DNA of 15,805 nucleotides, taken from IMG/VR virus record IMGVR_UViG_2541047722_000005, one strand, 5' to 3'. Below the pieces are notes generated by a model. It saw only the letters and a list, made by a program, of their open reading frames with translations, searched no databases and was not told the DNA's origin. This DNA is from a virus. Its lineage: Duplodnaviria > Heunggongvirae > Uroviricota > Caudoviricetes. This document shows, piece by piece, positions 1,461 to 15,805 of this stretch. The translations under genes were made by a program, and so were the position numbers. The number at the start of each line of letters is the position of its first letter. Positions within the stretch are counted from its first letter, which is position 1.

Positions 1461-1608
1461 TTGATGATGCCTCTGTGTGAAATGACGGTAAACGACGCAC
1501 TTGTGCCGGCACATAATAGCAAGCACCATAATAGATCAGATTCGATTCTTGCTGTAAGTGATAATTATTCTCGTTTTCGGGTCCTTTCCGTCGATCCAAC
1601 AGGTTACG

Positions 1609-1620
1609 GGGCGGCGACCT
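1609..1620. other. cosN: cosN cohesive-end sequence (GGGCGGCGACCT)
   Basis: aggttacgGGGCGGCGACCTcgcgg at 1601-1625 matches my recollection of the lambda cos junction (right end ...AGGTTACG joined to left end GGGCGGCGACCTCGCGG...). It lies ~180 bp upstream of the Nu1 homologue, as in lambda. Confidence 0.85.
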
Positions 1621-1796
1621 CGCGGTTTTTCACTATTTATGAAAATTTTTCAGGGAAAATCGTGTCGGTACTTCTCGAATATAACTTTTTGTTTTTTTTA
1701 ATATTGCATCCGTAAAGGTCCGACATGAAAGTGTCCGAAAATGCCTTTTTCTGGCGTTTTCATGTCGGGCCTTGTATTTGATAATGGGTTGTTTTC
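1621..1796 (+). promoter_or_regulatory. cosB: cosB-like terminase-binding region between cosN and Nu1
   Basis: Position is equivalent to lambda cosB. Sequence follows lambda for ~30 bp after cosN (cgcgg.ttttc.ctatttatgaaaatttt) then diverges. It contains the inverted repeat CCGACATGAAA (1720-1730) / TTTCATGTCGG (1758-1768) and a partial direct copy GTCCGAAAATG (1733-1743), which are candidate small-terminase (R-site-like) binding elements. Confidence 0.55.
1720..1768. repeat. 11-bp inverted repeat CCGACATGAAA / TTTCATGTCGG inside cosB-like region
   Basis: Exact reverse-complement match read directly from the sequence; arms separated by 27 bp. Confidence 0.7.
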
Positions 1797-2345
1797 ATGA
1801 AGGTTAATAAAAAGAGGCTTGCCGAAATTTTCAACGTGGACCCGCGGACGATTGAACGCTGGCAGTCTCAGGGACTCCCTTGCGCCTCCAAAGGCAGTAA
1901 GGGCATTGAATCTGTATTTGATACTGCCATGGCAATTCAGTGGTATGCGCAGAGGGAAACTGATATCGAAAACGAAAAGCTCCGCAAAGAACTGGACGAT
2001 TTGCGTGCGGCAGCGGAGTCAGATTTACAACCCGGCACCATTGACTATGAACGCTACCGGCTCACAAAAGCGCAGGCAGATGCGCAGGAACTGAAAAATG
2101 CCCGTGAAGACGGAGTAGTGCTGGAAACTGAACTGTTTACCTTCATTCTGCAACGTGTGGCACAGGAGATTTCGGGGATACTTGTGCGTGTGCCGTTGAC
2201 ATTACAGCGTAAATATCCGGACATTTCACCATCACACCTTGATGTGGTGAAAACTGAAATCGCGAAAGCCTCCAATGTTGCAGCTAAGGCCGGTGAAAAC
2301 GTGGGCGGGTGGATCGATGATTTCAGACGCACAGAAGGCAGCTAA
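1797..2345 (+). CDS. nu1: Terminase small subunit (Nu1 homologue, 182 aa)
   Basis: [26 protein letters not shown]... aligns along its full length with lambda Nu1 as recalled (MEVNKKQLADIFGASIRTIQNWQEQG...; conserved [33 protein letters not shown]); N-terminal HTH; first gene after cos. Confidence 0.9.
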
Positions 2346-4245
2346 TGCAGCCGGTGCGATAGCTACAGGGCTTTTATCTCTCATTATTCCTGTTCCACTG
2401 ACGACAGTTCAGTGGGCCAATAAACATTATTACCTTCCTAAAGAGTCGTCTTATACCCCGGGGCGGTGGGAAACACTGCCGTTTCAGGTTGGCATCATGA
2501 ACTGTATGGGCAACGATCTGATTCGCACGGTTAACCTGATTAAATCTGCCCGTGTTGGTTATACAAAGATGTTGCTGGGAGTGGAGGCTTATTTTATTGA
2601 GCATAAATCACGCAACAGCCTTCTTTTTCAGCCCACGGACTCAGCTGCTGAAGATTTTATGAAATCTCATGTTGAGCCAACGATAAGGGATGTTCCTGCA
2701 TTGCTGGAGCTGGCTCCATGGTTCGGAAGAAAACACCGCGATAATACGCTCACCCTGAAGCGTTTTTCCTCCGGTGTGGGGTTCTGGTGTCTGGGTGGTG
2801 CGGCAGCAAAAAACTACCGTGAAAAATCCGTGGATGTGGTCTGTTATGACGAGCTTTCCTCGTTCGAACCGGATGTTGAAAAAGAGGGTTCGCCAACCCT
2901 GCTGGGGGATAAACGTATTGAGGGCTCTGTATGGCCAAAATCCATTCGCGGCTCGACGCCTAAAATCAAAGGCTCCTGCCAGATCGAAAAAGCCGCTAAC
3001 GAGTCGGCACACTTCATGCGTTTTTATGTGCCCTGTCCGCACTGTGGGGAGGAGCAGTATCTGAAATTTGGCGATGATGCCTCGCCTTTCGGTCTTAAGT
3101 GGGAGAAGAATAAGCCAGAAAGTGTTTTCTACCTTTGTGAGCATCATGGCTGTGTGATCCATCAGTCTGAGCTTGACCAGAGTAACGGGCGGTGGATCTG
3201 TGAAAACACGGGCATGTGGACCCGTGACGGCCTGATGTTTTTCAGCGCCCGGGGTGATGAAATTCCGCCGCCGCGCTCCATCACTTTCCATATCTGGACG
3301 GCGTACAGTCCGTTCACCACCTGGGTACAGATTGTCTATGACTGGCTGGATGCACTGAAAGATCCCAACGGCCTGAAAACCTTTGTGAACACCACGCTGG
3401 GCGAGACCTGGGAAGAGGCTGTGGGCGAAAAACTCGATCACCAGGTGCTGATGGATAAGGTTGTGCGTTACACGGCGGCGGTGCCTGCCCGGGTGGTTTA
3501 TCTGACGGCGGGCATTGACTCGCAGCGAAACCGTTTTGAGATGTATGTCTGGGGATGGGCTCCGGGAGAGGAAGCCTTTCTGGTGGATAAAATCATCATT
3601 ATGGGGCGTCCCGATGAGGAAGAGACGCTGTTACGTGTGGATGCGGCGATCAACAAAAAATACCGCCATGCAGACGGAACCGAAATGACCATTTCCCGTG
3701 TCTGCTGGGACATCGGGGGGATCGATGGCGAAATCGTTTATCAGAGGTCAAAAAAACACGGTGTTTTCCGGGTGCTGCCGGTAAAAGGCGCATCTGTCTA
3801 TGGCAAGCCGGTGATCACCATGCCAAAAACCCGCAATCAGCGGGGCGTGTATCTGTGTGAAGTGGGGACGGACACCGCAAAAGAAATTCTCTATGCCCGT
3901 ATGAAAGCCGATCCCACGCCTGTGGATGAAGCCACGTCGTATGCTATCCGTTTTCCTGATGATCCGGAGATTTTTTCGCAGACAGAGGCGCAGCAACTGG
4001 TCGCGGAAGAGCTTGTGGAGAAGTGGGAAAAAGGAAAGATGCGTCTGCTGTGGGATAACAAAAAGCGGCGTAACGAAGCGCTGGACTGCCTGGTGTATGC
4101 CTACGCGGCATTACGTGTGTCCGTGCAACGCTGGCAGCTTGATCTGGCTGTACTGGCAAAATCCCGGGAAGAAGAGACGACCCGGCCAACCCTTAAAGAA
4201 CTGGCAGCGAAGCTGTCCGGAGGAGTGAATGGTTACAGTCGCTGA
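2317..4245 (+). CDS. A: Terminase large subunit (gpA homologue, 642 aa from ATG 2317)
   Basis: Strong colinear similarity to lambda gpA as recalled ([80 protein letters not shown]). Start chosen at ATG 2317 (MISDAQK...), overlapping the Nu1 3' end by 29 nt as in lambda; the track ORF starts further upstream at 2275. Confidence 0.9.
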
Positions 4246-4435
4246 ACTGCAGGCGCTGCGTCAGGCGCGCCTTGATTTATTAACCGGTAAACGGGTGGTG
4301 TCTGTCCAGAAAGATGGTCGCAGAATTGAATATACGGCGGCTTCTCTGGATGAGCTTAACCGGGCGATCAATGATGCGGAGTCGGTACTGGGGACAACCC
4401 GGTGTCGCCGTCGTCCGCTGGGAGTGAGGTTATGA
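4229..4435 (+). CDS. W: Head-tail joining protein W homologue (68 aa)
   Basis: [40 protein letters not shown]... resembles lambda gpW as recalled ([23 protein letters not shown]). ATG 4229 overlaps the end of A. Confidence 0.85.
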   Translation: MVTVAELQALRQARLDLLTGKRVVSVQKDGRRIEYTAASLDELNRAINDAESVLGTTRCRRRPLGVRL

Positions 4436-6024
4436 AACGAACGCCTGTCCTGATTGATGTGAACGGCGTTCCGCTTCGTGAGAGTCTCAGCTACAACGGG
4501 GGCGGTGCAGGATTTGGCGGGCAAATGGCTGAGTGGTTGCCACCGGCGCAGAGTGCCGATGCGGCCCTGCTGCCCGCGTTGCGTCTGGGGAATGCCCGGG
4601 CAGATGATCTGGTGCGCAATAACGGAATAGCGGCTAATGCGGTGGCTCTGCATAAGGATCACATTGTCGGGCATATGTTTCTGATCAGCTACCGTCCGAA
4701 CTGGCGCTGGCTGGGGATGCGGGAGACCGCAGCAAAAAGCTTTGTCGATGAGGTGGAGGCGGCCTGGTCGGAATACGCCGAAGGGATGTTTGGCGAGATC
4801 GACGTGGAAGGAAAACGCACGTTCACGGAATTTATCCGTGAAGGTGTGGGCGTTCATGCGTTTAACGGCGAAATCTTTGTGCAGCCGGTCTGGGATACGG
4901 AAACCACGCAGTTATTCCGTACGCGTTTTAAAGCCGTGAGTCCGAAACGGGTGGACACGCCTGGACACGGTATGGGGAACCGTTTTCTGCGGGCCGGTGT
5001 GGAGGTCGATCGATATGGCCGTGCCGTCGCGTACCATATCTGTGAGGATGATTTTCCGTTCTCTGGTAGTGGACGATGGGAACGGATCCCGCGTGAACTT
5101 CCCACCGGGCGTCCGGCCATGCTGCATATTTTCGAGCCGGTGGAGGACGGGCAGACCCGTGGGGCTAATCAGTTTTACAGCGTCATGGAACGGCTGAAGA
5201 TGCTCGATTCCCTGCAGGCAACACAGCTTCAGTCGGCCATAGTGAAGGCGATGTATGCAGCGACGATTGAAAGTGAACTTGATACCGAAAAGGCCTTTGA
5301 ATATATCGCCGGCGCGCCACAGGAGCAGAAGGATAATCCGCTTATTAATATTCTGGAGAAGTTTTCCAGCTGGTATGACACGAATAACGTGACACTGGGC
5401 GGTGTCAAAATTCCGCACCTTTTCCCTGGTGATGATCTGAAACTACAGACTGCGCAGGATTCAGACAATGGATTTTCTGCGCTTGAACAGGCGCTGCTGC
5501 GGTATATCGCCGCCGGTCTTGGCGTTTCCTACGAACAGTTGTCCCGTGATTACTCGAAGGTCAGTTACTCAAGTGCCCGCGCCTCCGCCAATGAGTCGTG
5601 GCGCTATTTTATGGGGCGGCGAAAATTTATTGCGGCCCGGCTGGCCACGCAGATGTTTTCCTGCTGGCTGGAAGAGGCACTTCTTCGGGGGATTATTCGT
5701 CCGCCACGGGCACGTTTTGATTTTTATCAGGCGCGATCAGCCTGGTCACGGGCAGAGTGGATTGGTGCCGGAAGAATGGCCATTGACGGGCTCAAGGAAG
5801 TCCAGGAATCAGTGATGCGCATTGAGGCCGGACTGAGCACGTATGAGAAAGAGCTGGCGCTGATGGGCGAGGATTATCAGGACATTTTCCGCCAGCAGGT
5901 CAGGGAATCTGCTGAGCGGCAAAAAGCCGGACTCTCACGTCCGGTGTGGATAGCGCAGGCGTATCAGCAGCAGATAGCGGAGAGTCGCAGGCCGGAAGAG
6001 GAGACAACACCACGTGAGACGTAA
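4432..6024 (+). CDS. B: Portal protein (gpB homologue, 530 aa from ATG 4432)
   Basis: Extensive similarity to lambda gpB as recalled (NARADDLVRNNG.AANA, FEPVEDGQTRGAN.FYSVME, LQSAIVKAMYAATIESELDT, LLRYIAAGLGVSYEQLSR, GRMAIDGLKEVQE). ATG 4432 overlaps the W stop (ATGA). Confidence 0.9.
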   Translation: MKRTPVLIDVNGVPLRESLSYNGGGAGFGGQMAEWLPPAQSADAALLPALRLGNARADDLVRNNGIAANAVALHKDHIVGHMFLISYRPNWRWLGMRETAAKSFVDEVEAAWSEYAEGMFGEIDVEGKRTFTEFIREGVGVHAFNGEIFVQPVWDTETTQLFRTRFKAVSPKRVDTPGHGMGNRFLRAGVEVDRYGRAVAYHICEDDFPFSGSGRWERIPRELPTGRPAMLHIFEPVEDGQTRGANQFYSVMERLKMLDSLQATQLQSAIVKAMYAATIESELDTEKAFEYIAGAPQEQKDNPLINILEKFSSWYDTNNVTLGGVKIPHLFPGDDLKLQTAQDSDNGFSALEQALLRYIAAGLGVSYEQLSRDYSKVSYSSARASANESWRYFMGRRKFIAARLATQMFSCWLEEALLRGIIRPPRARFDFYQARSAWSRAEWIGAGRMAIDGLKEVQESVMRIEAGLSTYEKELALMGEDYQDIFRQQVRESAERQKAGLSRPVWIAQAYQQQIAESRRPEEETTPRET

Positions 6025-7519
6025 TCTTTCACACATTATTGCCGCAGCATTCAATGAACCGCTGCTTCTGGAGCCCGCCTATGCGCGGGTTTTCTTTTGC
6101 GCGCTCGGGCGCGAGATGGGGGCAGCAAGTCTTTCGGTACCACAACAGCAGGTACAGTTTGATGCTCCCGGAATGCTGGCTGAAACGGACGAGTACATGG
6201 CCGGAGGTAAACGACCGGCCCGTGTTTACCGGGTGGTGAACGGTATTGCTGTACTGCCGGTGACCGGCACGCTGGTGCACCGGCTGGGTGGTATGCGGCC
6301 ATTTTCCGGAATGACAGGCTATGACGGCATTGTCGCCTGTCTTCAGCAGGCAATGGCGGATAGCCAGGTGCGGGGCGTACTGCTGGACATTGACAGTCCG
6401 GGCGGGCAGGCCGCCGGCGCGTTTGACTGCGCTGACATGATTTACCGCCTCCGTCAGCAGAAGCCGGTCTGGGCACTGTGCAATGACACGGCCTGTTCTG
6501 CAGCCATGCTGCTGGCGTCGGCCTGCTCCCGACGGCTGGTTACCCAGACATCCCGTATCGGCTCCATTGGCGTGATGATGAGCCATGTCAGCTATGCCGG
6601 TCATCTGGCGCAGGCCGGTGTGGATATCACGCTGATTTACTCAGGGGCGCACAAGGTGGATGGCAATCAGTTTGAAGCGTTGCCGGCAGAGGTTCGCCAG
6701 GACATGCAGCAGCGGATTGATGCGGCGCGCCGGATGTTTGCCGAAAAAGTGGCGATGTATACCGGTCTGTCTGTTGATGCCGTCACGGGAACAGAGGCTG
6801 CCGTTTTTGAAGGTCAGTCCGGCATTGAGGCCGGGCTGGCGGATGAATTAATCAATGCGTCGGATGCCATCAGTGTGATGGCCACGGCGCTGAACAGTAA
6901 TGTCAGAGGAGGCACTATGCCGCAATTAACTGCAACGGAAGCCGCCGCGCAGGAGAACCAGCGAGTGATGGGGATCCTGACATGCCAGGAAGCGAAAGGA
7001 CGTGAACAGCTTGCCACGATGCTGGCAGGACAACAGGGCATGAGCGTTGAACAGGCCCGGGCGATTCTGGCCGCGGCGGCACCGCAGCAGCCGGTGGCAT
7101 CCACGCAGAGTGAAGCCGATCGCATTATGGTGTGTGAAGAAGCGAACGGTCGTGAACAACTGGCGGCAACGCTGGCGGCGATGCCGGAGATGACGGTGGA
7201 AAAAGCCCGCCCGATCCTGGCTGCTTCACCGCAGGCGGATGCCGGACCATCACTCCGTGATCAGATCATGGCACTGGATGAGGCAAAAGGGGCTGAGGCG
7301 CAGGCTGAACAGCTGGCTGCCTGCCCGGGAATGACAGTGGAGAGCGCCCGGGCTGTGCTGGCTGCGGGATCAGGTAAGGCAGAACCGGTCTCTGCATCCA
7401 CAACCGCCATGTTTGAACATTTCATGGCGAACCATTCACCGGCAGCGGTACAGGGTGGCGTGGCACAGACGTCAGCAGACGGTGATGCGGACGTGAAAAT
7501 GCTCATGGCCATGCCATGA
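6014..7519 (+). CDS. C: Head maturation protease / minor capsid protein C homologue (501 aa), with C-terminal scaffold (Nu3-like) portion
   Basis: GTG start 6014 (VRRNLSHIIAAAFNEPLLLEPAYARVFFCAL matches lambda gpC N-terminus ...NLPHIASMAFNEPLMLEPAYARVFFCAL as recalled). Central region has S49/ClpP-like features (DIDSPGG, GAFDCAD, PVWAL.ND..CSA..LLASA.SRRLVTQT.R.GSIGVMM.H). About 60 aa longer than lambda C because of a tandem repeat expansion in the C-terminal part. Confidence 0.88.
   Translation: MRRNLSHIIAAAFNEPLLLEPAYARVFFCALGREMGAASLSVPQQQVQFDAPGMLAETDEYMAGGKRPARVYRVVNGIAVLPVTGTLVHRLGGMRPFSGMTGYDGIVACLQQAMADSQVRGVLLDIDSPGGQAAGAFDCADMIYRLRQQKPVWALCNDTACSAAMLLASACSRRLVTQTSRIGSIGVMMSHVSYAGHLAQAGVDITLIYSGAHKVDGNQFEALPAEVRQDMQQRIDAARRMFAEKVAMYTGLSVDAVTGTEAAVFEGQSGIEAGLADELINASDAISVMATALNSNVRGGTMPQLTATEAAAQENQRVMGILTCQEAKGREQLATMLAGQQGMSVEQARAILAAAAPQQPVASTQSEADRIMVCEEANGREQLAATLAAMPEMTVEKARPILAASPQADAGPSLRDQIMALDEAKGAEAQAEQLAACPGMTVESARAVLAAGSGKAEPVSASTTAMFEHFMANHSPAAVQGGVAQTSADGDADVKMLMAMP
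6704..7519 (+). CDS. nu3: Possible nested in-frame scaffold protein (Nu3-like), translated from an internal start of C
   Basis: By analogy with lambda, where Nu3 is the C-terminal in-frame portion of C. In-frame ATG 6704 (MQQRIDAARRMFAEKV...) with AGAGG 11 nt upstream; aligns with the lambda Nu3 start region (MDATRQMFAQKV) as recalled. ATG 6734 is an alternative. The start is inferred, not demonstrated. Confidence 0.35.
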   Translation: MQQRIDAARRMFAEKVAMYTGLSVDAVTGTEAAVFEGQSGIEAGLADELINASDAISVMATALNSNVRGGTMPQLTATEAAAQENQRVMGILTCQEAKGREQLATMLAGQQGMSVEQARAILAAAAPQQPVASTQSEADRIMVCEEANGREQLAATLAAMPEMTVEKARPILAASPQADAGPSLRDQIMALDEAKGAEAQAEQLAACPGMTVESARAVLAAGSGKAEPVSASTTAMFEHFMANHSPAAVQGGVAQTSADGDADVKMLMAMP

Positions 7520-7555
7520 AGTCAGTGCTGACCATCAATAGGAGGTTTTTACAAT

Positions 7556-7903
7556 ATGGTGACGAAAACCATCACTGAACAGCGTGCGGAAGTACGTATT
7601 TTTGCCGGTAATGATCCGGCTCATACCGCCACAGGCAGCAGCGGGATTTCCTCGCCAACACCGGCACTGACGCCCCTGATGCTGGATGAAGCCACCGGGA
7701 AACTGGTGGTCTGGGACGGACAGAAAGCCGGTAGTGCGGTTGGCATACTGGTACTGCCGCTTGAAGGCACAGAGACGGCGCTGACGTATTACAAGTCGGG
7801 AACCTTTGCGACGGAGGCAATCCACTGGCCTGAAAGTGTGGATGAACACAAAAAGGCCAACGCCTTTGCTGGCAGTGCCCTGAGTCACGCGGCGCTGCCG
7901 TAA
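7556..7903 (+). CDS. D: Head decoration protein (gpD homologue, 115 aa)
   Basis: AGGAGG (7540-7545) then ATG 7556; DPAHTAT...TPLMLD...KLV.WDG...AVGIL...LT.YKSGTF..E...WPE...K...AFAG.A matches lambda gpD as recalled. Confidence 0.9.
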   Translation: MVTKTITEQRAEVRIFAGNDPAHTATGSSGISSPTPALTPLMLDEATGKLVVWDGQKAGSAVGILVLPLEGTETALTYYKSGTFATEAIHWPESVDEHKKANAFAGSALSHAALP

Positions 7904-7910
7904 CACGTTA

Positions 7911-7932
7911 TCAGGCCACCGCGGTGGCCTGA
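7911..7932. repeat. 22-bp perfect palindrome TCAGGCCACCG|CGGTGGCCTGA in the D-E intergenic region
   Basis: Read directly from the sequence; GC-rich, centred on CCGCGG; not followed by a clean T-run. Confidence 0.8.
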
Positions 7933-7960
7933 CTGATTTCTGAATGAAAGGAACTGATTT

Positions 7961-8989
7961 ATGGGATTGTTTACGACCCGCCAGTTACTCGGTTATACCG
8001 AACAAAAAGTTAAATTTCGTGCGCTGTTTCTGGAGCTGTTTTTCCGCCGTACGGTGAATTTCCATACCGAAGAGGTGATGCTGGACAAAATTACCGGAAA
8101 AACGCCGGTGGCGGCCTATGTCTCCCCGGTTGTTGAAGGAAAAGTGCTGCGTCATCGTGGTGGTGAAACCCGCGTGTTGCGTCCGGGCTACGTCAAGCCG
8201 AAACACGAATTTAATTACCAGCAGGCGGTTGAGCGCCTTCCTGGTGAAGATCCATCTCAACTGAATGATCCGGCTTACCGCCGTCTGCGTATCATTACCG
8301 ATAACCTCAAACAGGAAGAGCACGCGATTGTCCAGGTGGAAGAAATGCAGGCGGTAAATGCTGTGTTGTATGGCAAATACACCATGGAAGGAGACCAGTT
8401 CGAGAAAATTGAGGTCGATTTTGGCAGGTCGACGAAGAATAACATCACTCAGGGTAGTGGTAAGGAGTGGTCAAAACAGGATCGTGACACGTTCGATCCT
8501 ACACATGATATTGACCTCTACTGCGACCTGGCCAGCGGTCTTGTGAATATTGCCATTATGGACGGTACCGTCTGGCGTCTTCTGAATGGTTTTAAGCTGT
8601 TCCGCGAAAAACTGGATACCCGTCGCGGTTCAAATTCTCAACTCGAAACGGCAGTGAAAGATCTGGGCGCAGTGGTGTCCTTCAAGGGGTATTACGGCGA
8701 TCTGGCCATTGTGGTGGCGAAAACGTCTTATATAGCAGAAGACGGTATCGAAAAACGTTATCTTCCAGATGGCATGCTGGTTCTGGGGAATACTGCTGCA
8801 GATGGGATCCGTTGTTACGGTGCCATTCAGGATGCTCAGGCGTTGTCCGAAGGTGTGGTGGCCTCTTCCCGTTATCCGAAACACTGGCTGACGGTAGGGG
8901 ATCCCGCCCGTGAATTTACCATGACGCAGTCCGCGCCGCTGATGGTGTTGCCGGACCCGGATGAGTTTGTGGTGGTACAGGTGAAATAA
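7961..8989 (+). CDS. E: Major capsid protein (gpE homologue, 342 aa)
   Basis: AAGGA 9 nt upstream of ATG 7961; similarity across the whole length to lambda gpE as recalled (PGYVKPKHE, RLP.EDP..L.DPAYRR.RII, AIVQVEEMQAV.AVL.GKYTM, KLDTRRGSNS.LETAVKDLG, RYPK.W.T.GDPAREFTM.QSAPLM.L.DPDEFV.VQ). Confidence 0.92.
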   Translation: MGLFTTRQLLGYTEQKVKFRALFLELFFRRTVNFHTEEVMLDKITGKTPVAAYVSPVVEGKVLRHRGGETRVLRPGYVKPKHEFNYQQAVERLPGEDPSQLNDPAYRRLRIITDNLKQEEHAIVQVEEMQAVNAVLYGKYTMEGDQFEKIEVDFGRSTKNNITQGSGKEWSKQDRDTFDPTHDIDLYCDLASGLVNIAIMDGTVWRLLNGFKLFREKLDTRRGSNSQLETAVKDLGAVVSFKGYYGDLAIVVAKTSYIAEDGIEKRYLPDGMLVLGNTAADGIRCYGAIQDAQALSEGVVASSRYPKHWLTVGDPAREFTMTQSAPLMVLPDPDEFVVVQVK

Positions 8990-8997
8990 TCCGTGAG

Positions 8998-9026
8998 CGG
9001 GGGCGAAATGCCCCCGTGTCTTTTTT
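8998..9026 (+). terminator. Candidate intrinsic terminator/attenuator immediately downstream of E
   Basis: 7-bp GC-rich stem CGGGGGC (8998-9004) / GCCCCCG (9010-9016), 5-nt loop GAAAT, then TGTC followed by TTTTTT (9021-9026). Lies between the E stop (8989) and the FI start (9041). Confidence 0.55.
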
Positions 9027-9040
9027 CACAGGGGGCTGAT

Positions 9041-9415
9041 ATGGCAACGAAAGAGCAAAATCTGAAACGGCTTGATGAACTGGCCCTGATTCTGGGGCGT
9101 GAGCCGGATATATCCGGGAGTGCCGCAGAGATAGCGCAGCGGGTGGCAGAATGGGAAGAGGAAATGCAGTCATCCGGCGATGATGTACAGGTTATGAATA
9201 TGGATATCCGGGAGCGGGAAACCGCGGCTCATGATGTTCGTGAGGAAACATCCGGCGCGTTAACGCGCATCAGAGTTCTGACCTGCCTCCATCTCTGTGG
9301 CGTTGATGGTGAAACGGGGGAATCCGTTGAGCTTGCGGATGTTGGTCGGGTGATTCTGATTATGTCCTCAGATGCAAAAACACACGTTGATGGTGGAATG
9401 GCTGTTTATGCGTGA
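9041..9415 (+). CDS. FI: DNA-packaging/head assembly protein FI homologue (124 aa from ATG 9041)
   Basis: Position between E and FII; GGGGG 6 nt upstream of ATG 9041; acidic protein. Sequence similarity to lambda FI is weak by my recollection, so the call is mainly positional. Confidence 0.6.
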   Translation: MATKEQNLKRLDELALILGREPDISGSAAEIAQRVAEWEEEMQSSGDDVQVMNMDIRERETAAHDVREETSGALTRIRVLTCLHLCGVDGETGESVELADVGRVILIMSSDAKTHVDGGMAVYA

Positions 9416-9761
9416 TTTTCAGAATGCCTTTGATGCCGCCCTTGCCGGGGTGGACAGTACGATTGTTGAAGTGATGGGCATCAGTGCGCAGTTCACCTCC
9501 GGTGCACAGCGTGGCGGCGAGGTTCATGGCGTTTTTGACGATCCGGAGTCGCTGGGTTTTGCCAGTAGTGGGATCCGTATTGAAGGAAGTAACCCGTCAT
9601 TATTTGTGCTTACGGATACGGTTTGTGCTGTACGGCGTGGTGACACGCTGACCATTAACGGCGAGATGTTCTGGGTGGACCGTGTTTCTCCGGATGACGG
9701 AGGGAGTTGTTATCTCTGGCTCAACCGGGGGCAACCACCTGCCGCCAGCCGTCGCCGCTGA
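9408..9761 (+). CDS. FII: Head-tail connector protein FII homologue (117 aa from ATG 9408)
   Basis: MRDFQNAFDAAL...GVFDDPE...G.R.EGS.PSLFV.TD.V...RRGDTLTI....FWVDRVSPDDGGSC.LWL.RG.PPA..RRR matches lambda FII as recalled, with the C-terminal third nearly identical. ATG 9408 overlaps the FI stop. Confidence 0.85.
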   Translation: MRDFQNAFDAALAGVDSTIVEVMGISAQFTSGAQRGGEVHGVFDDPESLGFASSGIRIEGSNPSLFVLTDTVCAVRRGDTLTINGEMFWVDRVSPDDGGSCYLWLNRGQPPAASRRR

Positions 9762-9772
9762 AAGGGGGATGT

Positions 9773-10351
9773 ATGGCCATAAAAGGTCTTGAGCAGGCCG
9801 TTGAAAACCTCAGCCGTATCAGCAAAACGGCAGTGCCTGGTGCCGCCGCAATGGCCATTAACCGCGTTGCTTCATCCGCGATATCGCAGTCGGCGTCACT
9901 GGTTGCCCGTGAGACAAAGGTACGCCGGAAACTGGTAAAGGAAAGGGCCAGGCTGAAAAGGGCCACGGTCAAAAATCCGCAGGCCAGAATCAAAGTTAAC
10001 CGGGGGGATTTGCCCGTAATCAGGCTGGGTAACGCGCGGGTTGTCCTGTCCCGACGCAGGCGTCGTAAAAAGGGGCAGCGTTCATCCCTGAAAGGTGGCG
10101 GCAGCGTGCTTGTGGTGGGAAACCGTCGTATTCCCGGCGCGTTTATTCAGCAACTGAAAAATGGCCGGTGGCATGTCATGCAGCGTGTGGCCGGGAAAAA
10201 CCGTTACCCCATTGATGTGGTGAAAATCCCGATGGCGGTGCCGCTGACCACGGCGTTTAAACAGAATATTGAGCGGATACGGCGTGAGCGTCTTCCGAAA
10301 GAGCTGGGCTATGCGCTGCAGCATCAACTGAGAATGGTAATAAAGCGATGA
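9773..10351 (+). CDS. Z: Tail assembly/completion protein Z (192 aa)
   Basis: MAIKGLEQAVENLSRISKTAVPGAAAMAINRVASSAISQSAS... appears nearly identical to lambda gpZ as recalled. ATG 9773; the upstream part of the track ORF is rejected. Confidence 0.92.
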   Translation: MAIKGLEQAVENLSRISKTAVPGAAAMAINRVASSAISQSASLVARETKVRRKLVKERARLKRATVKNPQARIKVNRGDLPVIRLGNARVVLSRRRRRKKGQRSSLKGGGSVLVVGNRRIPGAFIQQLKNGRWHVMQRVAGKNRYPIDVVKIPMAVPLTTAFKQNIERIRRERLPKELGYALQHQLRMVIKR

Positions 10352-10743
10352 AACATACTGAACTCCGTGCAGCCGTACTGGATGCACTGGAGAAGCATGA
10401 CACCGGGGCGACGCTTTTTGATGGTCGCCCTGCTGTTTTTGATGAGGAAGATTTTCCGGCAATTGCCGTTTATCTCACCGGCGCTGAATACACGGGCGAA
10501 GAGCTGGACAGCGATACCTGGCAGGCGGAGCTGCATATTGAAGTTTTCCTGCCTGCTCAGGTGCCGGATTCAGAGCTGGATTCGTGGATGGAGTCCCGGA
10601 TTTATCCGGTGATGAGCGATATCCCGGCACTGTCAGATTTGATCACCAGTATGGTGGCCAGTGGCTATGACTACCGGCGCGACGATGATGCGGGCCTGTG
10701 GAGTTCAGCCGATCTGACTTATGTCATTACCTATGAAATGTGA
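10348..10743 (+). CDS. U: Tail terminator protein U (131 aa)
   Basis: [68 protein letters not shown]... is near-identical to lambda gpU as recalled; ATG overlaps the Z stop. Confidence 0.93.
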
Positions 10744-10750
10744 GGACGAT

Positions 10751-11491
10751 ATGCCAACACCAAATCCTCTGGCACCGGTGAAAGGGGCCGGGACCACACT
10801 GTGGGTTTATAACGGGAGCGGCGACCCTTATGCAAACCCGCTTTCAGACAATGACTGGTCGCGTCTGGCAAAAATTAAAGACCTGACGCCCGGCGAACTG
10901 ACCGCTGAGTCCTATGACGACAGTTATCTCGATGATGAAGATGCGGACTGGACCGCGACCGGGCAGGGGCAGAAATCCGCCGGAGATACCAGCTTCACGC
11001 TGGCGTGGATGCCCGGAGAGCAGGGGCAGCAGGCGCTGCTGGCGTGGTTTAATGAAGGTGATACCCGTGCCTATAAAATCCGCTTCCCGAACGGCACGGT
11101 CGATGTGTTCCGTGGCTGGGTCAGCAGTATCGGTAAGGCGGTGACGGCGAAGGAAGTGATCACCCGTACGGTGAAGGTCACCAATGTGGGCCGTCCGTCA
11201 ATGGCAGAAGATCGCAGTACGGTGACGGCGGCAACCGGTATGACCGTGACGCCTGCCAGCTCCTCGGTGGTGAAAGGGCAGAGCACCACGCTGACCGTGG
11301 CCTTCCAGCCGGAGGGCGCAACTGACAAGAGCTTCCGTGCGGTGTCAGCGGATAAAACAAAAGCCACCGTGTCGGTCAGTGGTATGACCATCACCGTGAA
11401 CGGCGTTGCTGCAGGCAAGGTCAACATTCCGGTTGTATCCGGTAATGGTGAACTTGCTGCGGTTGCAGAAATCACTGTCACCGACAGTTAA
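10751..11491 (+). CDS. V: Major tail tube protein V (246 aa from ATG 10751)
   Basis: [119 protein letters not shown]... is near-identical to lambda gpV as recalled, including the C-terminal Ig-like domain. Confidence 0.93.
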
Positions 11492-11506
11492 TCCGGAGAG
11501 TCAGCG

Positions 11507-11929
11507 ATGTTCCTGAAAACCGAATCATTTGAACATAACGGCGTGACCGTCACGCTTTCTGAACTGTCAGCCCTGCAGCGTATTGAGCATCTCGCCCTGA
11601 TGAAACAGCAGGCAGAACAGGCGGAGTCAGACAGCAACCGGCAGGTTACTGTGGAAGACGCCATCAGAACCGGTGCTTTTGTGGTGGCGATGTCCCTGTG
11701 GCATAACCATCCGCAGAAGACAAAGCAGCCTTCCATGAATGAAGCCGTTAAACAGATTGAGCAGGAAGTGCTTACCACCTGGCCCGCGGAGGCAATTTCT
11801 CATGCTGAAAACGTGGTGTACCGGCTGTCCGGTATGTATGGGTTTGTGGTGAATGATGCCCCTGACCAGGCAGAGGACTCCGGGCCTGCAGAGCCTGTTT
11901 CTGCGGGAAAGTGTTCGACGGTGAGCTGA
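11507..11929 (+). CDS. G: Tail assembly chaperone G (140 aa)
   Basis: MFLKTESFEHNGVTVTLSELSALQRIEHLALMK.QAEQAESDSNR... is near-identical to lambda gpG as recalled; GGAGAG RBS upstream. Confidence 0.93.
   Translation: MFLKTESFEHNGVTVTLSELSALQRIEHLALMKQQAEQAESDSNRQVTVEDAIRTGAFVVAMSLWHNHPQKTKQPSMNEAVKQIEQEVLTTWPAEAISHAENVVYRLSGMYGFVVNDAPDQAEDSGPAEPVSAGKCSTVS
11905..11911 (+). other. Programmed -1 ribosomal frameshift slippery heptamer G GGA AAG (G to G-T fusion)
   Basis: GGGAAAG at 11905-11911 is in the G frame as G-GGA-AAG, 6 codons before the G stop; the -1 frame continues from 11911 as the T ORF. Same heptamer and position as the lambda G/T frameshift. Confidence 0.85.
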
Positions 11930-12345
11930 GTTTTGCCCTGAAACTGGCGCGAGAGATGGGGCGACCTGACTGGCGCGCCATGCTTGCCGGGATGTCATCC
12001 ACGGAGTATGCCGACTGGCACCGCTTTTACAGTACCCATTATTTTCATGATGTTCTGCTGGATATGCACTTTTCCGGGCTGACGTACACTGTGCTCAGCC
12101 TGTTTTTCAGCGATCCGGATATGCATCCGCTGGATTTCAGTTTGCTGAACCGGCGTGAGGATGACGAAGAGCCTGAAGATGATGTGCTGATGCAGAAAGC
12201 GGCAGGGCTTACCGGAGGCGTCCGCTTTGACCCGGACGGAAATGAAGTTATCCCCGCTTCCCCGGATATGGCGGGCATGACGGAGGATGACGTAATGCTG
12301 ATGACAGTATCAGAAGGGATCGCAGGAGGAGTCCGGTATGGCTGA
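11911..12345 (+). CDS. T: T portion of the gpG-T frameshift fusion tail assembly chaperone (expressed only as G-T via -1 frameshift)
   Basis: -1 frame ORF beginning at the slippery site (VFDGELSFALKLAREMGRPDWRAMLAGMSSTEYADWHRFY...), with no independent start expected; overlaps the H start. Confidence 0.85.
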   Translation: MFDGELSFALKLAREMGRPDWRAMLAGMSSTEYADWHRFYSTHYFHDVLLDMHFSGLTYTVLSLFFSDPDMHPLDFSLLNRREDDEEPEDDVLMQKAAGLTGGVRFDPDGNEVIPASPDMAGMTEDDVMLMTVSEGIAGGVRYG

Positions 12346-14899
12346 ACCGGTAGGCGATCTGGTCGTTGATTTAAGTCTGGATGCGGCCAGATTTGACGAG
12401 CAGATGGCCAGAGTCAGGCGTCATTTTTCCGGTACGGAAAGTGATGCGAAAAAAACAGCGGCAGTCGTTGAACAGTCGCTGAGCCGACAGGCGCTGGCTG
12501 CACAGAAAGCGGGGATTTCCGTCGGGCAGTATAAAGCCGCCATGCGTATGCTGCCTGCACAGTTCACCGACGTGGCCACGCAGCTTGCAGGCGGGCAAAG
12601 CCCGTGGCTGATCCTGCTGCAACAGGGTGGTCAGGTTAAGGACTCCTTCGGCGGGATGATCCCCATGTTCCGGGGGCTTGCCGGTGCGATCACCCTGCCG
12701 ATGGTCGGGGCCACCTCGCTGGCGGTGGCGACCGGTGCGCTGGCGTATGCCTGGTATCAGGGTAACTCAACCCTGTCCGATTTCAACAAAACGCTGGTCC
12801 TTTCCGGCAATCAGTCGGGTCTGACGGCAGATCGTATGCTGGTCCTGTCCAGAGCCGGGCAGGCGGCAGGGCTGACGTTTAACCAGACCAGCGAGTCACT
12901 CAGCGCACTGGTTAAGGCGGGAGTAAGCGGTGAGGCTCAGATTGCATCCATCAGCCAGAGTGTGGCGCGTTTCTCCTCTGCATCCGGCGTGGAGGTGGAC
13001 AAGGTCGCTGAAGCCTTCGGGAAGCTGACCACTGACCCGACGTCGGGGCTGACGGCGATGGCGCGCCAGTTCCATAACGTAACGGCGGAGCAGATTGCGT
13101 ATGTTGCTCAGTTGCAGCGTTCCGGCGATGAATCCGGGGCATTGCAGGCGGCGAACGAGGCCGCAACGAAAGGGTTTGATGACCAGACCCGACGCCTGAA
13201 AGAGAACATGGGCACGCTGGAAACCTGGGCAGACAGGACAGCACGGGCATTCAAATCCATGTGGGATGCGGTGCTGGATATTGGTCGTCCTGATACCGCT
13301 CAGGAGATGCTGATTAAGGCAGAGGCTGCGTTTAAGAAAGCGGACGACATCTGGAATCTGCGCAAGGATGATTATTTTGTTAACGATGAAGCGCGGGCGC
13401 GTTACTGGGATGATCGTGAAAAGGCCCGTCTTGCGCTTGAAGCCGCCCGAAAGAAGGCTGAGCAGCAGACTCAACAGGACAAAAATGCGCAGCAGCAGAG
13501 CGATACCGAAGCGTCACGGCTGAAATATACCGAAGAGGCGCAGAAGGCTTACGAACGGCTGCAGACGCCGCTGGAGAAATATACCGCCCGTCAGGAAGAA
13601 CTGAACAAGGCACTGAAAGACGGGAAAATCCTGCAGGCGGATTACAACACGCTGATGGCGGCGGCGAAAAAGGATTATGAAGCGACGCTGAAAAAGCCGA
13701 AACAGTCCGGCGTGAAGGTGTCTGCGGGCGATCGTCAGGAAGACAGTGCTCATGCTGCTCTGCTGACGCTTCAGGCAGAACTCCGGACGCTGGAGAAGCA
13801 TGCCGGAGCAAATGAGAAAATCAGCCAGCAGCGCCGGGATTTGTGGAAGGCGGAGAGTCAGTTCGCGGTACTGGAGGAGGCGGCGCAACGTCGCCAGCTG
13901 TCTGCACAGGAGAAATCCCTGCTGGCGCATAAAGATGAGACGCTGGAGTACAAACGCCAGCTGGCTGCGCTTGGCGACAAGGTTACGTATCAGGAGCGCC
14001 TGAACGCGCTGGCGCAGCAGGCGGATAAATTCGCACAGCAGCAACGGGCAAAACGGGCCGCCATTGATGCGAAAAGCCGGGGGCTGACTGACCGGCAGGC
14101 AGAACGGGAAGCCACGGAACAGCGCCTGAAGGAACAGTATGGCGATAATCCGCTGGCGCTGAATAACGTCATGTCAGAGCAGAAAAAGACCTGGGCGGCT
14201 GAAGACCAGCTTCGCGGGAACTGGATGGCAGGCCTGAAGTCCGGCTGGAGTGAGTGGGAAGAGAGCGCCACGGACAGTATGTCGCAGGTAAAAAGTGCAG
14301 CCACGCAGACCTTTGATGGTATTGCGCAGAATATGGCGGCGATGCTGACCGGCAGTGAACAGAACTGGCGCAGCTTCACCCGTTCCGTGCTGTCCATGAT
14401 GACAGAAATTCTGCTTAAGCAGGCAATGGTGGGGATTGTCGGGAGTATCGGCAGCGCTATTGGCGGGGCTGTTGGTGGCGGCGCATCCGCGTCAGGCGGT
14501 ACAGCCATTCAGGCCGCTGCGGCGAAACTCCATTTTGCAACCGGAGGATTTACGGGAACCGGCGGCAAATATGAGCCAGCGGGGATTGTTCACCGTGGTG
14601 AATTTGTCTTCACGAAGGAGGCAACCAGCCGGATTGGCGTGGGAAATCTCTACCGGCTGATGCGCGGCTATGCCACCGGCGGTTATGTCGGTGGCACCGG
14701 AAGTCCGGCGCAAATGCGGCGTTCAGAGGGTATCAGGTTTGAGCAGAACAACAACGTGGTGATTCAGAACGACGGTACGAATGGTCTGCCAGGTCCACAG
14801 ATGATGAAGGCGGTGTATGACATGGCCCGCAAGGGTGCCCGTGATGAAATCCAGGCACAGATGCGCGATGGTGGTCTGTTCTCCGGAGGTGGACGATGA
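12338..14899 (+). CDS. H: Tail tape measure protein H (853 aa)
   Basis: 853 aa, same length as lambda gpH; N-terminus MAEPVGDLVVDLSLDAARFDEQMARVRRHF... and most of the length match lambda gpH as recalled. ATG 12338 overlaps the T stop. Confidence 0.93.
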   Translation: MAEPVGDLVVDLSLDAARFDEQMARVRRHFSGTESDAKKTAAVVEQSLSRQALAAQKAGISVGQYKAAMRMLPAQFTDVATQLAGGQSPWLILLQQGGQVKDSFGGMIPMFRGLAGAITLPMVGATSLAVATGALAYAWYQGNSTLSDFNKTLVLSGNQSGLTADRMLVLSRAGQAAGLTFNQTSESLSALVKAGVSGEAQIASISQSVARFSSASGVEVDKVAEAFGKLTTDPTSGLTAMARQFHNVTAEQIAYVAQLQRSGDESGALQAANEAATKGFDDQTRRLKENMGTLETWADRTARAFKSMWDAVLDIGRPDTAQEMLIKAEAAFKKADDIWNLRKDDYFVNDEARARYWDDREKARLALEAARKKAEQQTQQDKNAQQQSDTEASRLKYTEEAQKAYERLQTPLEKYTARQEELNKALKDGKILQADYNTLMAAAKKDYEATLKKPKQSGVKVSAGDRQEDSAHAALLTLQAELRTLEKHAGANEKISQQRRDLWKAESQFAVLEEAAQRRQLSAQEKSLLAHKDETLEYKRQLAALGDKVTYQERLNALAQQADKFAQQQRAKRAAIDAKSRGLTDRQAEREATEQRLKEQYGDNPLALNNVMSEQKKTWAAEDQLRGNWMAGLKSGWSEWEESATDSMSQVKSAATQTFDGIAQNMAAMLTGSEQNWRSFTRSVLSMMTEILLKQAMVGIVGSIGSAIGGAVGGGASASGGTAIQAAAAKLHFATGGFTGTGGKYEPAGIVHRGEFVFTKEATSRIGVGNLYRLMRGYATGGYVGGTGSPAQMRRSEGIRFEQNNNVVIQNDGTNGLPGPQMMKAVYDMARKGARDEIQAQMRDGGLFSGGGR

Positions 14900-15225
14900 A
14901 AACCTTCCGCTGGAAAGTGAAACCCGGGATGGATGTGACATCGGCTCCTTCCGTCAGGGAGGTGCGCTTTGGTGATGGCTATTCCCAGCGTGCGCCTGCC
15001 GGGCTGAACGCTGACCTGAAAACGTACAGCGTGACGCTGTCTGTCTCCCGTGAGGAGGCCACGGCGCTGGAGTCGTTTCTGGCTGAGCACGGGGGCTGGA
15101 AGGCCTTTCTGTGGACGCCGCCTTATGGTTACAGGCAGATAAAGGTGACCTGCGCAAAATGGTCGTCGCGGGTCAGTATGCTGCGTGTTGAGTTCAGCGC
15201 AGAGTTTGAACAGGTGGTGAACTGA
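14896..15225 (+). CDS. M: Minor tail protein M (109 aa)
   Basis: MKTFRWKVKPGMDV...VRFGDGYSQRAPAGLNA.LKTYSVTLSV.REEAT.LESFL.EHGGWK.FLWTPPY..RQIKVTCAKWSSRVSMLRVEFSAEFEQVVN matches lambda gpM as recalled; ATGA overlap with H. Confidence 0.93.
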   Translation: MKTFRWKVKPGMDVTSAPSVREVRFGDGYSQRAPAGLNADLKTYSVTLSVSREEATALESFLAEHGGWKAFLWTPPYGYRQIKVTCAKWSSRVSMLRVEFSAEFEQVVN

Positions 15226-15805
15226 TGCAGGATATCCGGCAGGAAACATTGAATGAATGCACCCGTGCGGAGCAGTCGGCCAGCGTGGTGCTCTGGGAAA
15301 TCGATCTGACAGAGGTCGGTGGAGAACGTTATTTTTTCTGTAATGAGCAGAACGAAAAAGGTGAGCCGGTCACCTGGCAGGGGCGACAGTATCAGCCGTA
15401 TCCCATTCAGGGGAGTAGTTTTGAACTGAATGGCAAAGGCACCAGTACGCGCCCCACGCTGACGGTTTCTAACCTGTACGGTATGGTCACCGGGATGGTG
15501 GAAGATCTGCAGAGTCTGGTCGGCGGAACGGTGGTCAGGCGTAAGGTTTACGCCCGTTTTCTGGATGCGGTGAACTTCGTCAACGGAAACAGCGACGCCG
15601 ATCCGGAGCAGGAGGTGATCAGCCGCTGGCGCATCGAGCAGTGCAGCGAACTGAGTGCGGTCAGTGCCTCCTTTGTACTGTCCACACCGACGGAAACGGA
15701 TGGTGCCGTTTTTCCGGGGCGCATCATGCTGGCTAATACCTGCACCTGGACCTATCGCGGTGATGAGTGCGGTTATCACGGTCCGGCGGTCGCGGATGAA
15801 TATGA
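15225..15805 (+). CDS. L: Minor tail protein L, N-terminal ~193 codons (partial; continues past the window end)
   Basis: ATG 15225 overlaps the M stop (TGATG); translation MQDIRQETLNECTRAEQSASVVLWEIDLTEVGGERYFFCNEQNEKGEPVTWQGRQYQPYPIQGS... matches lambda gpL as recalled; frame is open to the window edge. Confidence 0.9.
   Translation, partial: MQDIRQETLNECTRAEQSASVVLWEIDLTEVGGERYFFCNEQNEKGEPVTWQGRQYQPYPIQGSSFELNGKGTSTRPTLTVSNLYGMVTGMVEDLQSLVGGTVVRRKVYARFLDAVNFVNGNSDADPEQEVISRWRIEQCSELSAVSASFVLSTPTETDGAVFPGRIMLANTCTWTYRGDECGYHGPAVADEY

What the first reader, a model, noticed from the sequence alone, without database searches (positions are those of the whole stretch)
9408..9773. Probable mosaic joint between a divergent head module and a near-lambda tail module, inside or near FII
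By comparison with lambda proteins recalled from memory, Nu1, A, W, B, C, D, E and FI are clearly homologous but substantially diverged, whereas Z, U, V, G, T, H, M and L are nearly identical to lambda. FII looks intermediate: its N-terminal part diverges and its C-terminal third is near-identical. FII is the head protein that contacts the tail, so a recombination joint here would preserve head-tail compatibility. This is a textbook-style module boundary and worth locating precisely.
Basis: partly seen in the sequence, partly recalled or inferred. Interest (0 to 1): 0.5.

Follow-up and report, generated by a model that had tools for sequence, protein, structure and literature searches.

The report
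Phage 21/lambda head–tail recombination joint
The window is a phage-21-type prophage in which old, diverged head genes meet lambda-like tail genes at a sharp recombination joint in the last few codons of gene FII; this is a real but classic, already known example of phage genome mosaicism.

Summary
The step change is real. The window is 99.8% identical to phage 21 and PhiR63_2. Against lambda, identity is about 45-75% from cos to the end of FII and 94-100% from Z onwards.

The joint is not in the middle of FII. The maximum-likelihood breakpoint is window 9749 (support 9749-9753). A three-way test with a second parent type places the crossover in 9738-9751, which is FII codons 111-115 and 10-24 nt before the stop codon.

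FII codons 76-114 still differ from lambda at 55% of synonymous sites (Z: 7%). FII's better-conserved C-terminal third therefore reflects protein constraint, not a younger exchange.

The same FII|Z border separates modules in two further comparisons:
- 21-type heads joined to a about 75%-identical "B-type" tail in many E. coli prophages.
- The Gifsy-2-like head of phage LLS.

Tails do not sort by head type. One lambda-head prophage carries a tail that differs from the window's by 2 of 3000 nt.

The exact joint is in about 425 complete E. coli records. The lambda/21 pattern has been known since heteroduplex mapping, so this is an ordinary, well-understood feature that is now located precisely.

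The parts
1797..9748 (+). Diverged head-gene block: Nu1, A, W, B, C/Nu3, D(shp), E, FI and FII codons 1-114. It is homologous to lambda's head genes but anciently diverged.
   Evidence: Identity to lambda is 22-79% per 100-nt window. Protein identity is 26-65% and pS is 0.64-0.74.
9041..9415 (+). FI gene, a separate hypervariable cassette inside the head block.
   Evidence: Protein identity to lambda is 26%. Nucleotide identity to PhiR12_2, L089 and L090 is only about 40-54%, although E and FII on either side are 90-98% identical. Pfam Packaging_FI match.
9408..9761 (+). FII homologue (phage 21 gene 8), the head-tail connector or 'stopper' protein, 117 aa.
   Evidence: Pfam PF05354 E 1e-15. 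PDB 1K0H/8K37 gpFII E 2e-47. Annotated in OL657228 as distal head completion protein.
9633..9748 (+). Better-conserved C-terminal third of FII (beta-sandwich core plus C-loop). It is still of head-block ancestry.
   Evidence: Nucleotide identity to lambda is 75%, pS 0.546, pN 0.15 and dS about 0.98, against Z dS 0.07.
9738..9751 (+). Crossover interval of the head/tail joint (FII codons 111-115). It contains three substitutions (9745, 9746, 9748; GCC AGC instead of GTT AAC) that are private to this lineage.
   Evidence: The last 21/B-type informative site is 9737. The first lambda-type sites are 9740 and 9743, with unambiguous ones from 9752. The pairwise ML breakpoint against lambda is 9749, support 9749-9753. 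The private GCCAGC is always followed by the lambda-type spacer, in 41 of 41 loci.
9749..9772 (+). Last codons of FII (Arg-Arg-Arg-stop) and the 11-nt spacer carrying the Z ribosome-binding site. This stretch is identical to lambda.
   Evidence: There is no mismatch to lambda from 9749 to 9831. The B-type prophages differ here at 8 positions plus a 3-4 nt indel.
9773..15805 (+). Lambda-type tail-gene block: Z, U, V, G/GT, H, M and the start of L.
   Evidence: Identity to lambda is 94-100% per 100-nt window, apart from patches at 10693-10892 and 14693-15192. pS is 0.055-0.21.

Best explanation
The flagged interval holds a historical recombination joint, not a functional element.

What was joined. 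The window is a phage-21-type prophage. Its head-gene block runs from cos through essentially all of FII and shares only an ancient ancestor with lambda's head genes. Its tail-gene block runs from the last codons of FII onwards and belongs to the same gene pool as lambda's tail.

Where. The crossover lies in window 9738-9751, which is FII codons 111-115 and 10-24 nt before the FII stop codon.

Consequences of that position:
- The joint leaves a complete 21-type FII protein, because both parents encode ...PPA(V/A)(N/S)RRR* at that end.
- Z keeps its native lambda-type ribosome-binding site.
- No chimeric protein or disturbed translation signal results.

Steps shown by the data: the step change, its position, its presence at synonymous sites, and the existence of both parental module combinations elsewhere.

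Steps inferred:
- The event was a rare crossover at short homology. GTTAACCG is the longest run that lambda-type and B-type FII share in the crossover region.
- Its position at the gene end reflects selection for intact genes.
- The about 97-100% identity of tails across head types is kept up by continuing homologous exchange within the shared tail block. That exchange cannot extend leftwards beyond the joint, because homology ends there.
For: - Sliding identity to lambda rises from 41-58% (9307-9592) through 69% and 85% to 99%. The ML change point is 9749, with 53% identity to its left and 98% to its right, and 2*delta-lnL is 165.
- Synonymous divergence: FII codons 1-75 are saturated (pS 0.80), codons 76-114 have dS about 0.98, and Z has 0.07. 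All head genes have pS 0.64-0.74 and all tail genes 0.055-0.21.
- Triplet test with a 21-type-head/B-type-tail prophage (L088) and lambda as parents: 867:20 informative sites to the left and 40:573 to the right. Maximum chi-square (1266) falls between 9737 and 9740, and four other B-type parents give the same interval.
- Alternative module combinations exist. PhiR12_2 and E. coli prophages L087-L090 carry heads that are mostly 90-100% identical to the window per 100-nt window, with short patches down to about 55-73% and a deletion in L087. Their tails are about 35-90% (typically about 75%) identical. LLS head-side proteins, including the FII analogue, are 19-30% identical, while Z, U and V are 53-64%.
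- Among the 73 analysable of 80 IMG/VR loci with Z at least 98% identical, FII is either 21-type (6 loci) or lambda-type (65), plus one outlier.
- Ongoing tail exchange: L008 has a lambda-type FII but its tail differs from the window's by 2 of 3000 nt, with a crossover in 9833-9899. The 21-type locus L027 has lambda-type loci as its nearest tails.
- The arrangement is natural and common. The 141-nt joint is at least 95% identical in 425 E. coli records, with a bimodal distribution: 6 records at 90-95% and 3087 at 80-90%.
Against: - The direction of the exchange cannot be decided. Head similarity to the B-type prophages (about 96%) and tail similarity to lambda (about 97%) are equally recent.
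- No sampled sequence is the exact left parent. The B-associated FII alleles differ from the window by about 9% (dS 0.33-0.39).
- The three private substitutions inside the crossover interval are unexplained.
- The pS of FII codons 76-114 (0.546) is at the 5th percentile of head-block windows. A much older, partial exchange in that segment cannot be excluded.
- The crossover is not at the longest run of lambda/21 identity in FII. That run is the 14-nt GACACGCTGACCAT at 9642-9655, so homology alone does not explain the position.
Confidence: 0.9

Rival explanations
1. The joint lies inside FII at about codon 76 (window about 9633). FII would then be a chimeric protein with a 21-type head-binding N-terminus and a lambda-type tail-binding C-terminus.
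For: BLAST alignments of all lambda-type phages to the window start at 9633. Protein identity rises from 55% in codons 1-75 to 81% in codons 76-117. pS of codons 76-114 is in the lowest 5% of head-block windows.
Against: Positions 9633-9748 still carry 29 mismatches in 116 nt, of which 13 are synonymous. Its dS of about 0.98 compares with 0.07 in Z. Other head-block windows reach 77-79% identity. The ML and triplet breakpoints are at 9738-9753. In this segment the window sides with the B-type 21-like FII and not with lambda. The conserved stretch is the beta-sandwich core, not the gpU contacts.
Confidence: 0.04
2. There was no recombination. Head genes simply evolve much faster than tail genes in a single vertically inherited genome.
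For: Structural genes can differ in constraint. pN is higher in the head genes.
Against: The jump is about 10-fold at synonymous sites and occurs within about 15 nt inside one operon. The same head is found with a about 75%-identical tail, and the same tail with a lambda head. The triplet test is decisive.
Confidence: 0.01
3. The FII|Z border is a true recombination hot spot, used repeatedly and independently through a local sequence feature or an edge-of-homology effect. It would not be the relic of one selected event.
For: Steps at the same border appear in three independent comparisons: lambda, B-type tails and LLS. Further crossovers lie within about 150 nt of the border: L008 at 9833-9899, L111/L128 in early Z, and B-like patches at 9868-9895 in L107, L114 and L126. 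D2 crosses over at the neighbouring FI/FII border.
Against: All 65 lambda-type loci and all 41 GCCAGC-type loci share exactly the same left edge, as expected from one ancestral event. No repeat, Chi site, promoter or Rfam element lies at the joint. Clustering at gene borders is what selection on random crossovers predicts. The nearby crossovers are ordinary homologous exchanges inside shared sequence.
Confidence: 0.2
4. The arrangement is a laboratory hybrid or an assembly chimera.
For: Lambda-21 hybrids were made extensively in the laboratory. D2 looks like such a patchwork.
Against: The tail is 97% identical to lambda, not 100%. Phage 21 gave the same assembly by Illumina and by Sanger sequencing (PMC9119081). 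The identical joint is in the E. coli type strain ATCC 11775 and in hundreds of natural isolates.
Confidence: 0.01

Closest known systems
Lambda versus phage 21 left-arm relationship (classical heteroduplex maps; phage 21 head-operon sequence M81255 of Smith and Feiss; complete genome OL657228 of Feiss et al. 2022, PMC9119081)
   Same: It is the same object. The window is 99.8% identical to phage 21. The diverged head operon followed by a lambda-like tail operon is the textbook lambda/21 pattern. That the heteroduplex transition lies at about 16-17% of lambda length is from my own knowledge; lambda position 7953 of 48502 is 16.4%.
   Different: The window is a chromosomal E. coli prophage copy with an IS3-family element 1.4 kb upstream of cos. 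M81255 stops at window 9576, before the joint. The 2022 announcement does not discuss the joint. The nucleotide-level position given here was therefore not found stated in the papers I could read.
Mosaic module boundaries of lambdoid phages (modular theory of Botstein; Hendrix/Casjens model of rare non-homologous joints filtered by selection, plus homologous exchange in shared flanks)
   Same: There is an abrupt identity step at a gene border, the flanking modules occur in alternative combinations, and secondary homologous crossovers occur inside the shared module.
   Different: The crossover is not in the intergenic spacer. It lies 10-24 nt inside the upstream gene, in codons whose protein sequence is nearly the same in both parents, so it is protein-neutral.
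Relaxed (homeologous) recombination by lambda Red / Rad52-like recombinases as a source of phage mosaicism (Martinsohn et al. 2008 and De Paepe et al. 2014, cited from my own knowledge)
   Same: The joint lies in a stretch where the parental FII types share short identical runs: GTTAACCG in lambda-type and B-type FII.
   Different: The mechanism was not tested here. Longer identical runs elsewhere in FII, such as the 14 nt at 9642-9655, were not the crossover site.

Membership tests
Lambdoid mosaic module joint (recombination breakpoint) | Abrupt, statistically supported change in nucleotide identity between two related genomes | tested here: met
   53% identity left and 98% right of 9749; 2*delta-lnL 165.
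Lambdoid mosaic module joint (recombination breakpoint) | The step is present at synonymous sites, so it reflects different ancestry rather than different constraint | tested here: met
   dS is about 0.98 or saturated in FII and 0.07 in Z. Head genes have pS 0.64-0.74 and tail genes 0.055-0.21.
Lambdoid mosaic module joint (recombination breakpoint) | The flanking modules occur in alternative combinations in other genomes, giving phylogenetic incongruence | tested here: met
   21-type head with B-type tail (L084, L087-L090), lambda head with lambda tail, and lambda-type FII with the window's own tail (L008). Triplet test 867:20 against 40:573.
Lambdoid mosaic module joint (recombination breakpoint) | The joint lies at or very near a gene boundary | tested here: met
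   Crossover at 9738-9751, FII stop codon at 9759-9761, Z ATG at 9773.
gpFII / Phage_attach head-tail connector family (PF05354) | Sequence match above the curated threshold, and a match to the solved lambda gpFII | tested here: met
   58.6 bits against a cutoff of 26. 1K0H/8K37 E 2e-47 over residues 1-117.
Intragenic chimeric FII (domain swap within the protein) | A change of ancestry inside the coding body, with the C-terminal domain sharing the low synonymous divergence of the tail block | tested here: not met
   Codons 76-114 have pS 0.546 and 13 synonymous differences. In this segment the window sides with 21/B-type FII.
Conserved 'boundary/linker sequence' or site-specific recombination site at module junctions | A specific conserved motif, repeat or recombinase site at the joint | tested here: inconclusive
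   There is no Chi site in the window, no promoter-like site in 9000-10400 and only a weak hairpin at 9685-9705, and no Rfam match. Only an 8-nt shared run, GTTAACCG, is present in the parental types. I did not scan for this motif at other junctions.

The most novel reading that the evidence does not exclude
The FII|Z border could be an actively and repeatedly used exchange point. Under this reading, two or more incompatible-by-homology head lineages (lambda-type, 21-type) share one interbreeding tail gene pool. Conversion tracts pile up against the edge of homology. The three private substitutions (GTT AAC to GCC AGC) inside the 14-nt crossover interval would be a mutational scar of the founding homeologous crossover.
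Probability: 0.2. Interest if true: 0.3.

Novelty: already known. Interest (0 to 1): 0.15.

Why it matters
This is a clean, nucleotide-resolution example of how lambdoid phages are assembled from interchangeable head and tail modules.

- The crossover sits where it changes no protein and no translation signal.
- Both parental combinations are still circulating in E. coli prophages.
- That makes it useful as a teaching case and as a positive control for recombination-detection pipelines.
- It is a reminder that a conserved protein segment can mimic an intermediate-age exchange unless synonymous sites are examined.
- It does not open a new question. The lambda/21 head-tail pattern has been known for decades and both genomes are public.

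Tried and rejected
- I treated 9633, the start of all BLAST hits from lambda-type phages, as a candidate joint. I rejected it because lambda itself starts there too and the segment 9633-9748 is still 25% diverged, with a dS of about 1.
- I looked for a parental FII carrying the private GCC AGC codons with a non-lambda right flank, using the pattern scan of IMG/VR. All 41 hits have the lambda-type spacer, and those with B-like tails (L111, L128, L103) switch only inside Z. The scar-versus-unsampled-parent question stays open. By my own rough estimate, three clustered changes in a about 9%-diverged segment are not statistically remarkable.
- There is no Chi site in the window, no Rfam family, no tandem repeats and no promoter-like site at the joint.
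- GC content shows no step at the joint.
- Literature searches for an explicit published description of the breakpoint found none in the held library.
- The single-breakpoint ML scan against B-type prophages over 9407-10100 was captured by a hypervariable patch in Z at about 10030. I replaced it with the triplet analysis.

Full report
**Identity of the window.** A megablast of the whole window against phage records gives 99.8% identity to Escherichia phage PhiR63_2 over 220-15805. It gives the same identity to phage 21 (OL657228) from window 1609, which is base 1 of the phage 21 cohesive end. Window coordinate therefore equals the phage 21 coordinate plus 1608. The flagged interval 9408-9773 runs from the start codon of the FII homologue (phage 21 gene 8, 9408-9761) to the first base of Z at 9773. 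The gene identifications are supported by Pfam matches: Phage_attach for FII, Minor_tail_Z, Packaging_FI, Phage_tail_U and gpW. FII also matches the solved lambda gpFII with E 2e-47. The first 219 bases belong to an IS3-family element, and the exact stretch 1-1700 occurs in E. coli chromosomes. The window is therefore a chromosomal prophage copy.

**Is the step real?** I aligned window 1609-15805 with lambda 1-14400 using MAFFT. Identity per 100 columns is 22-79% from cos to about 9600 and mostly 50-72%. It is then 69% (9593-9692), 85% (9693-9792) and 99% (9793-9892). It stays at 94-100% to the end, except for patches at 10693-10892 (88-91%) and 14693-15192 (61-93%). A single-change-point likelihood scan over 8800-10700 puts the break before 9749, with a 2-lnL support of 9749-9752. 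Identity is 53% on the left and 98% on the right. A scan over 9407-10100 gives the same position with 2*delta-lnL of 165. The last dense mismatches are at 9745, 9746 and 9748, and the next mismatch is at 9832.

**Is FII itself intermediate?** Only superficially.
- Protein identity to lambda is 55% for codons 1-75 and 81% for codons 76-117. Positions 9633-9748 are 75% identical in DNA.
- Codons 76-114 still carry 13 synonymous and 8 non-synonymous differences.
- Nei-Gojobori estimates are pS 0.80 (saturated) for codons 1-75 and pS 0.546 (dS about 0.98) for codons 76-114. The tail genes are far lower: Z pS 0.067 (dS 0.071), U 0.055 (dS 0.058) and H 0.077 (dS 0.082).
- All head genes have pS 0.64-0.74, and all tail genes 0.055-0.21.
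- Among 2191 sliding 39-codon windows of the head block, the FII C-terminal window is at the 5th percentile for pS and in the top 3% for nucleotide identity. It is the conserved end of the head-block distribution and far from the tail-block values. Other head windows also reach 77-79% identity.
- All BLAST hits from lambda-type phages start at 9633, which reflects local-alignment extension into this conserved patch. Lambda itself starts there too.
- According to the lambda cryo-EM structure, the conserved stretch (residues about 76-105) is the beta-sandwich core. The contacts to the tail terminator gpU are the beta-hairpin 46-62 and the C-terminal loop 108-117, and the N-terminal helix 4-24 holds gpW (PMC10721106).

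Protein constraint explains the pattern, not a younger exchange.

**A second parent and a formal test.** PhiR12_2 and four E. coli prophages (L087-L090) carry head genes that are mostly 90-100% identical to the window per 100-nt window. Short patches fall to about 55-73%, and L087 has a deletion in E. Their FII is about 90% identical. Their tail genes, here called B-type, are only about 35-90% identical, typically about 75%. I treated the window as the child, one of these prophages as parent P and lambda as parent Q, over 7556-12337. The informative sites split 867 P to 20 Q left of 9749 and 40 P to 573 Q right of it, using L088 as P. The maximum chi-square of 1266 falls between informative sites 9737 and 9740. 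All five choices of P give the same interval. Sites 9740 and 9743 are lambda-like, and sites from 9752 on are unambiguously lambda-like. Positions 9745, 9746 and 9748 are private to the window lineage. Combining the pairwise and triplet results, the crossover lies in 9738-9751, which is FII codons 111-115. That is 10-24 nt before the TGA at 9759-9761. Right of it, the Arg-Arg-Arg-stop codons, the 11-nt spacer with the Z ribosome-binding site, and Z are lambda-type. The B-type prophages differ in that stretch at eight positions plus a short indel.

**Private substitutions at the joint.** Both lambda-type FII (65 loci) and B-type-associated FII (5 loci) read GTT AAC (Val-Asn) at codons 113-114, whereas the window reads GCC AGC (Ala-Ser). 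A pattern scan of IMG/VR for FII ends encoding PPAASRRR* found 41 loci. All have a 21-type left flank and the lambda-type spacer immediately to the right. The few with B-like tails switch only inside Z. No unrecombined parent carrying GCC AGC was found. The three changes could be a scar of the crossover or could come from an unsampled parent. Given about 9% divergence between the window and the sampled B-associated FII alleles, I do not regard the cluster as significant. That judgement is my own rough estimate.

**Population context.**
- The scan returned 80 IMG/VR loci whose Z protein is at least 98% identical to the window's, and 73 sequences including the window and lambda could be aligned. 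FII is discretely 21-type in 6 loci (100% identical) or lambda-type in 65 loci (95-100% to lambda), with one outlier, L068, at 83% to lambda.
- Tail distances do not sort by head type. L008 has a lambda-type FII and the lambda base at 9832. From 9900 at the latest it carries the window's tail, with 2 differences in 3000 nt, so a recent homologous crossover occurred in 9833-9899.
- The 21-type locus L027 has lambda-type loci as its nearest tails.
- Phage D2 is a patchwork of segments 100% identical to lambda or to the window. One of its crossovers is at the FI/FII border, giving a 21-type W and portal with a lambda FII.
- Phage LLS has an unrelated Gifsy-2-like head (PMC12315714). Its head-side proteins, including the FII analogue, are 19-30% identical to the window's, while Z, U and V are 53-64%. 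This is a third independent step at the same border.
- In complete E. coli genomes, a 141-nt query across the joint is at least 95% identical in 425 records, 90-95% in only 6 and 80-90% in 3087. The joint is a discrete and common natural allele.

**Mechanism.**
- Shown: two blocks of different ancestry abut at 9738-9751, and both blocks occur in other combinations.
- Inferred: a rare crossover occurred between a 21-type-head phage and a lambda-tail phage at very short homology. GTTAACCG is the longest run shared by the sampled parental types in that region. Red or Rad52-type homeologous recombination is a plausible agent, which I state from my own knowledge and did not test.
- The recombinant was retained because it leaves FII intact and keeps Z's own initiation region.
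- Afterwards, homologous exchange within the shared tail block kept the tails of both head lineages nearly identical. Such exchange cannot proceed leftwards past the joint.
- The direction of the founding exchange cannot be decided, because head similarity to the B-type prophages and tail similarity to lambda are equally recent.
- No Chi site, Rfam family or tandem repeat was found in the window, and no promoter-like site was found in 9000-10400. Nothing points to a dedicated recombination site.

**Comparison with what is known.** This is the classical lambda/21 relationship: partially homologous head genes and homologous tail genes. It has been known from heteroduplex mapping and from the phage 21 head-operon sequence, which I state from my own knowledge. 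M81255 ends at window 9576, just short of the joint, and the 2022 genome announcement does not discuss it. The held literature gave no explicit nucleotide-level statement of the breakpoint. It follows trivially from two public genomes, however, and fits the standard mosaic model of lambdoid phages.

**Verdict.** This is a real feature with a correct general interpretation, a refined position (the gene end, not mid-gene), and a kind that is already known. Interest is low.

Noticed in passing
window 1-219: The window starts with the end of an IS3-family insertion element. The exact sequence 1-1700 occurs in E. coli chromosomes, including avian and extraintestinal pathogenic strains, whereas PhiR63_2 and ATCC 11775 match only from 220. 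The window is therefore a chromosomal prophage with an IS inserted about 1.4 kb upstream of cos.
   Followed up: partly
window 465-845 (+): An ORF of 126 aa with a TonB C-terminal domain (Pfam TonB_C, E 1e-12) lies between the IS end and cos. It is annotated as a TonB family protein in E. coli genomes and is probably a moron (an accessory gene carried by the prophage).
   Followed up: partly
window 9041-9415 (FI): FI is a hypervariable cassette of its own. It is 26% identical in protein to lambda FI, and about 40-54% identical in DNA to the FI of PhiR12_2, L089 and L090. The flanking E and FII in those genomes are 90-98% identical to the window's. L087 and L088 share the window's FI allele.
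   Followed up: partly
window 9000-9014: A GC-rich hairpin followed by a T run (GGGGCGAAATGCCCC...TCTTTTTT) lies just after the major capsid gene stop. It falls in a 13-nt stretch absent from lambda and could be an attenuator or an mRNA-stabilising structure.
   Followed up: no
window 14693-15192 and 10693-10892: Inside the otherwise 94-100% lambda-like tail block there are diverged patches: 61% identity at 14693-14792 (3' end of H), 88-93% through M, and 88-91% at the U/V border. Phage 2B8 is 100% identical to the window in 14874-15073. The tail block is thus itself a finer mosaic.
   Followed up: partly
L085 (phage D2, OM475427) versus window 1797-15805: D2 alternates between segments 100% identical to the window type and segments 100% identical to lambda, with switches near window 2370-2570, 3170, 5733-5932, 6315 and 9390-9406. 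It looks like a very recent, possibly laboratory, lambda x 21-type recombinant. No paper citing the accession was found.
   Followed up: partly
L087 (E. coli strain 20.1) versus window 9408-9761 and 8650-8850: L087 is 100% identical to the window from FI to about 9520 and then switches to the B-associated FII allele, which is a crossover inside FII among 21-type heads. Its major capsid gene is shortened (885 nt) by a deletion around window 8700-8850, so the prophage is probably defective.
   Followed up: no
window 10000-10260 (Z gene interior): Z contains a hypervariable patch. Identity between the window and B-type prophages is 35% at 10000-10099, and several B-type Z genes are shorter (534 nt against 579 nt). 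This patch captured the single-breakpoint scan.
   Followed up: no
window 6984-7378 (C/Nu3 region): The phage 21 C protein is 501 aa against 439 aa in lambda, with large alignment gaps at 7194-7593. M81255 annotates three 'Tri box' repeats here. Tandem Repeats Finder reported nothing in the window, so the repeats are diverged or not strictly tandem.
   Followed up: partly
whole window: There is no Chi site (GCTGGTGG) on either strand, against 0.97 expected by chance. This is unremarkable on its own but relevant to how RecBCD would treat this prophage arm.
   Followed up: no
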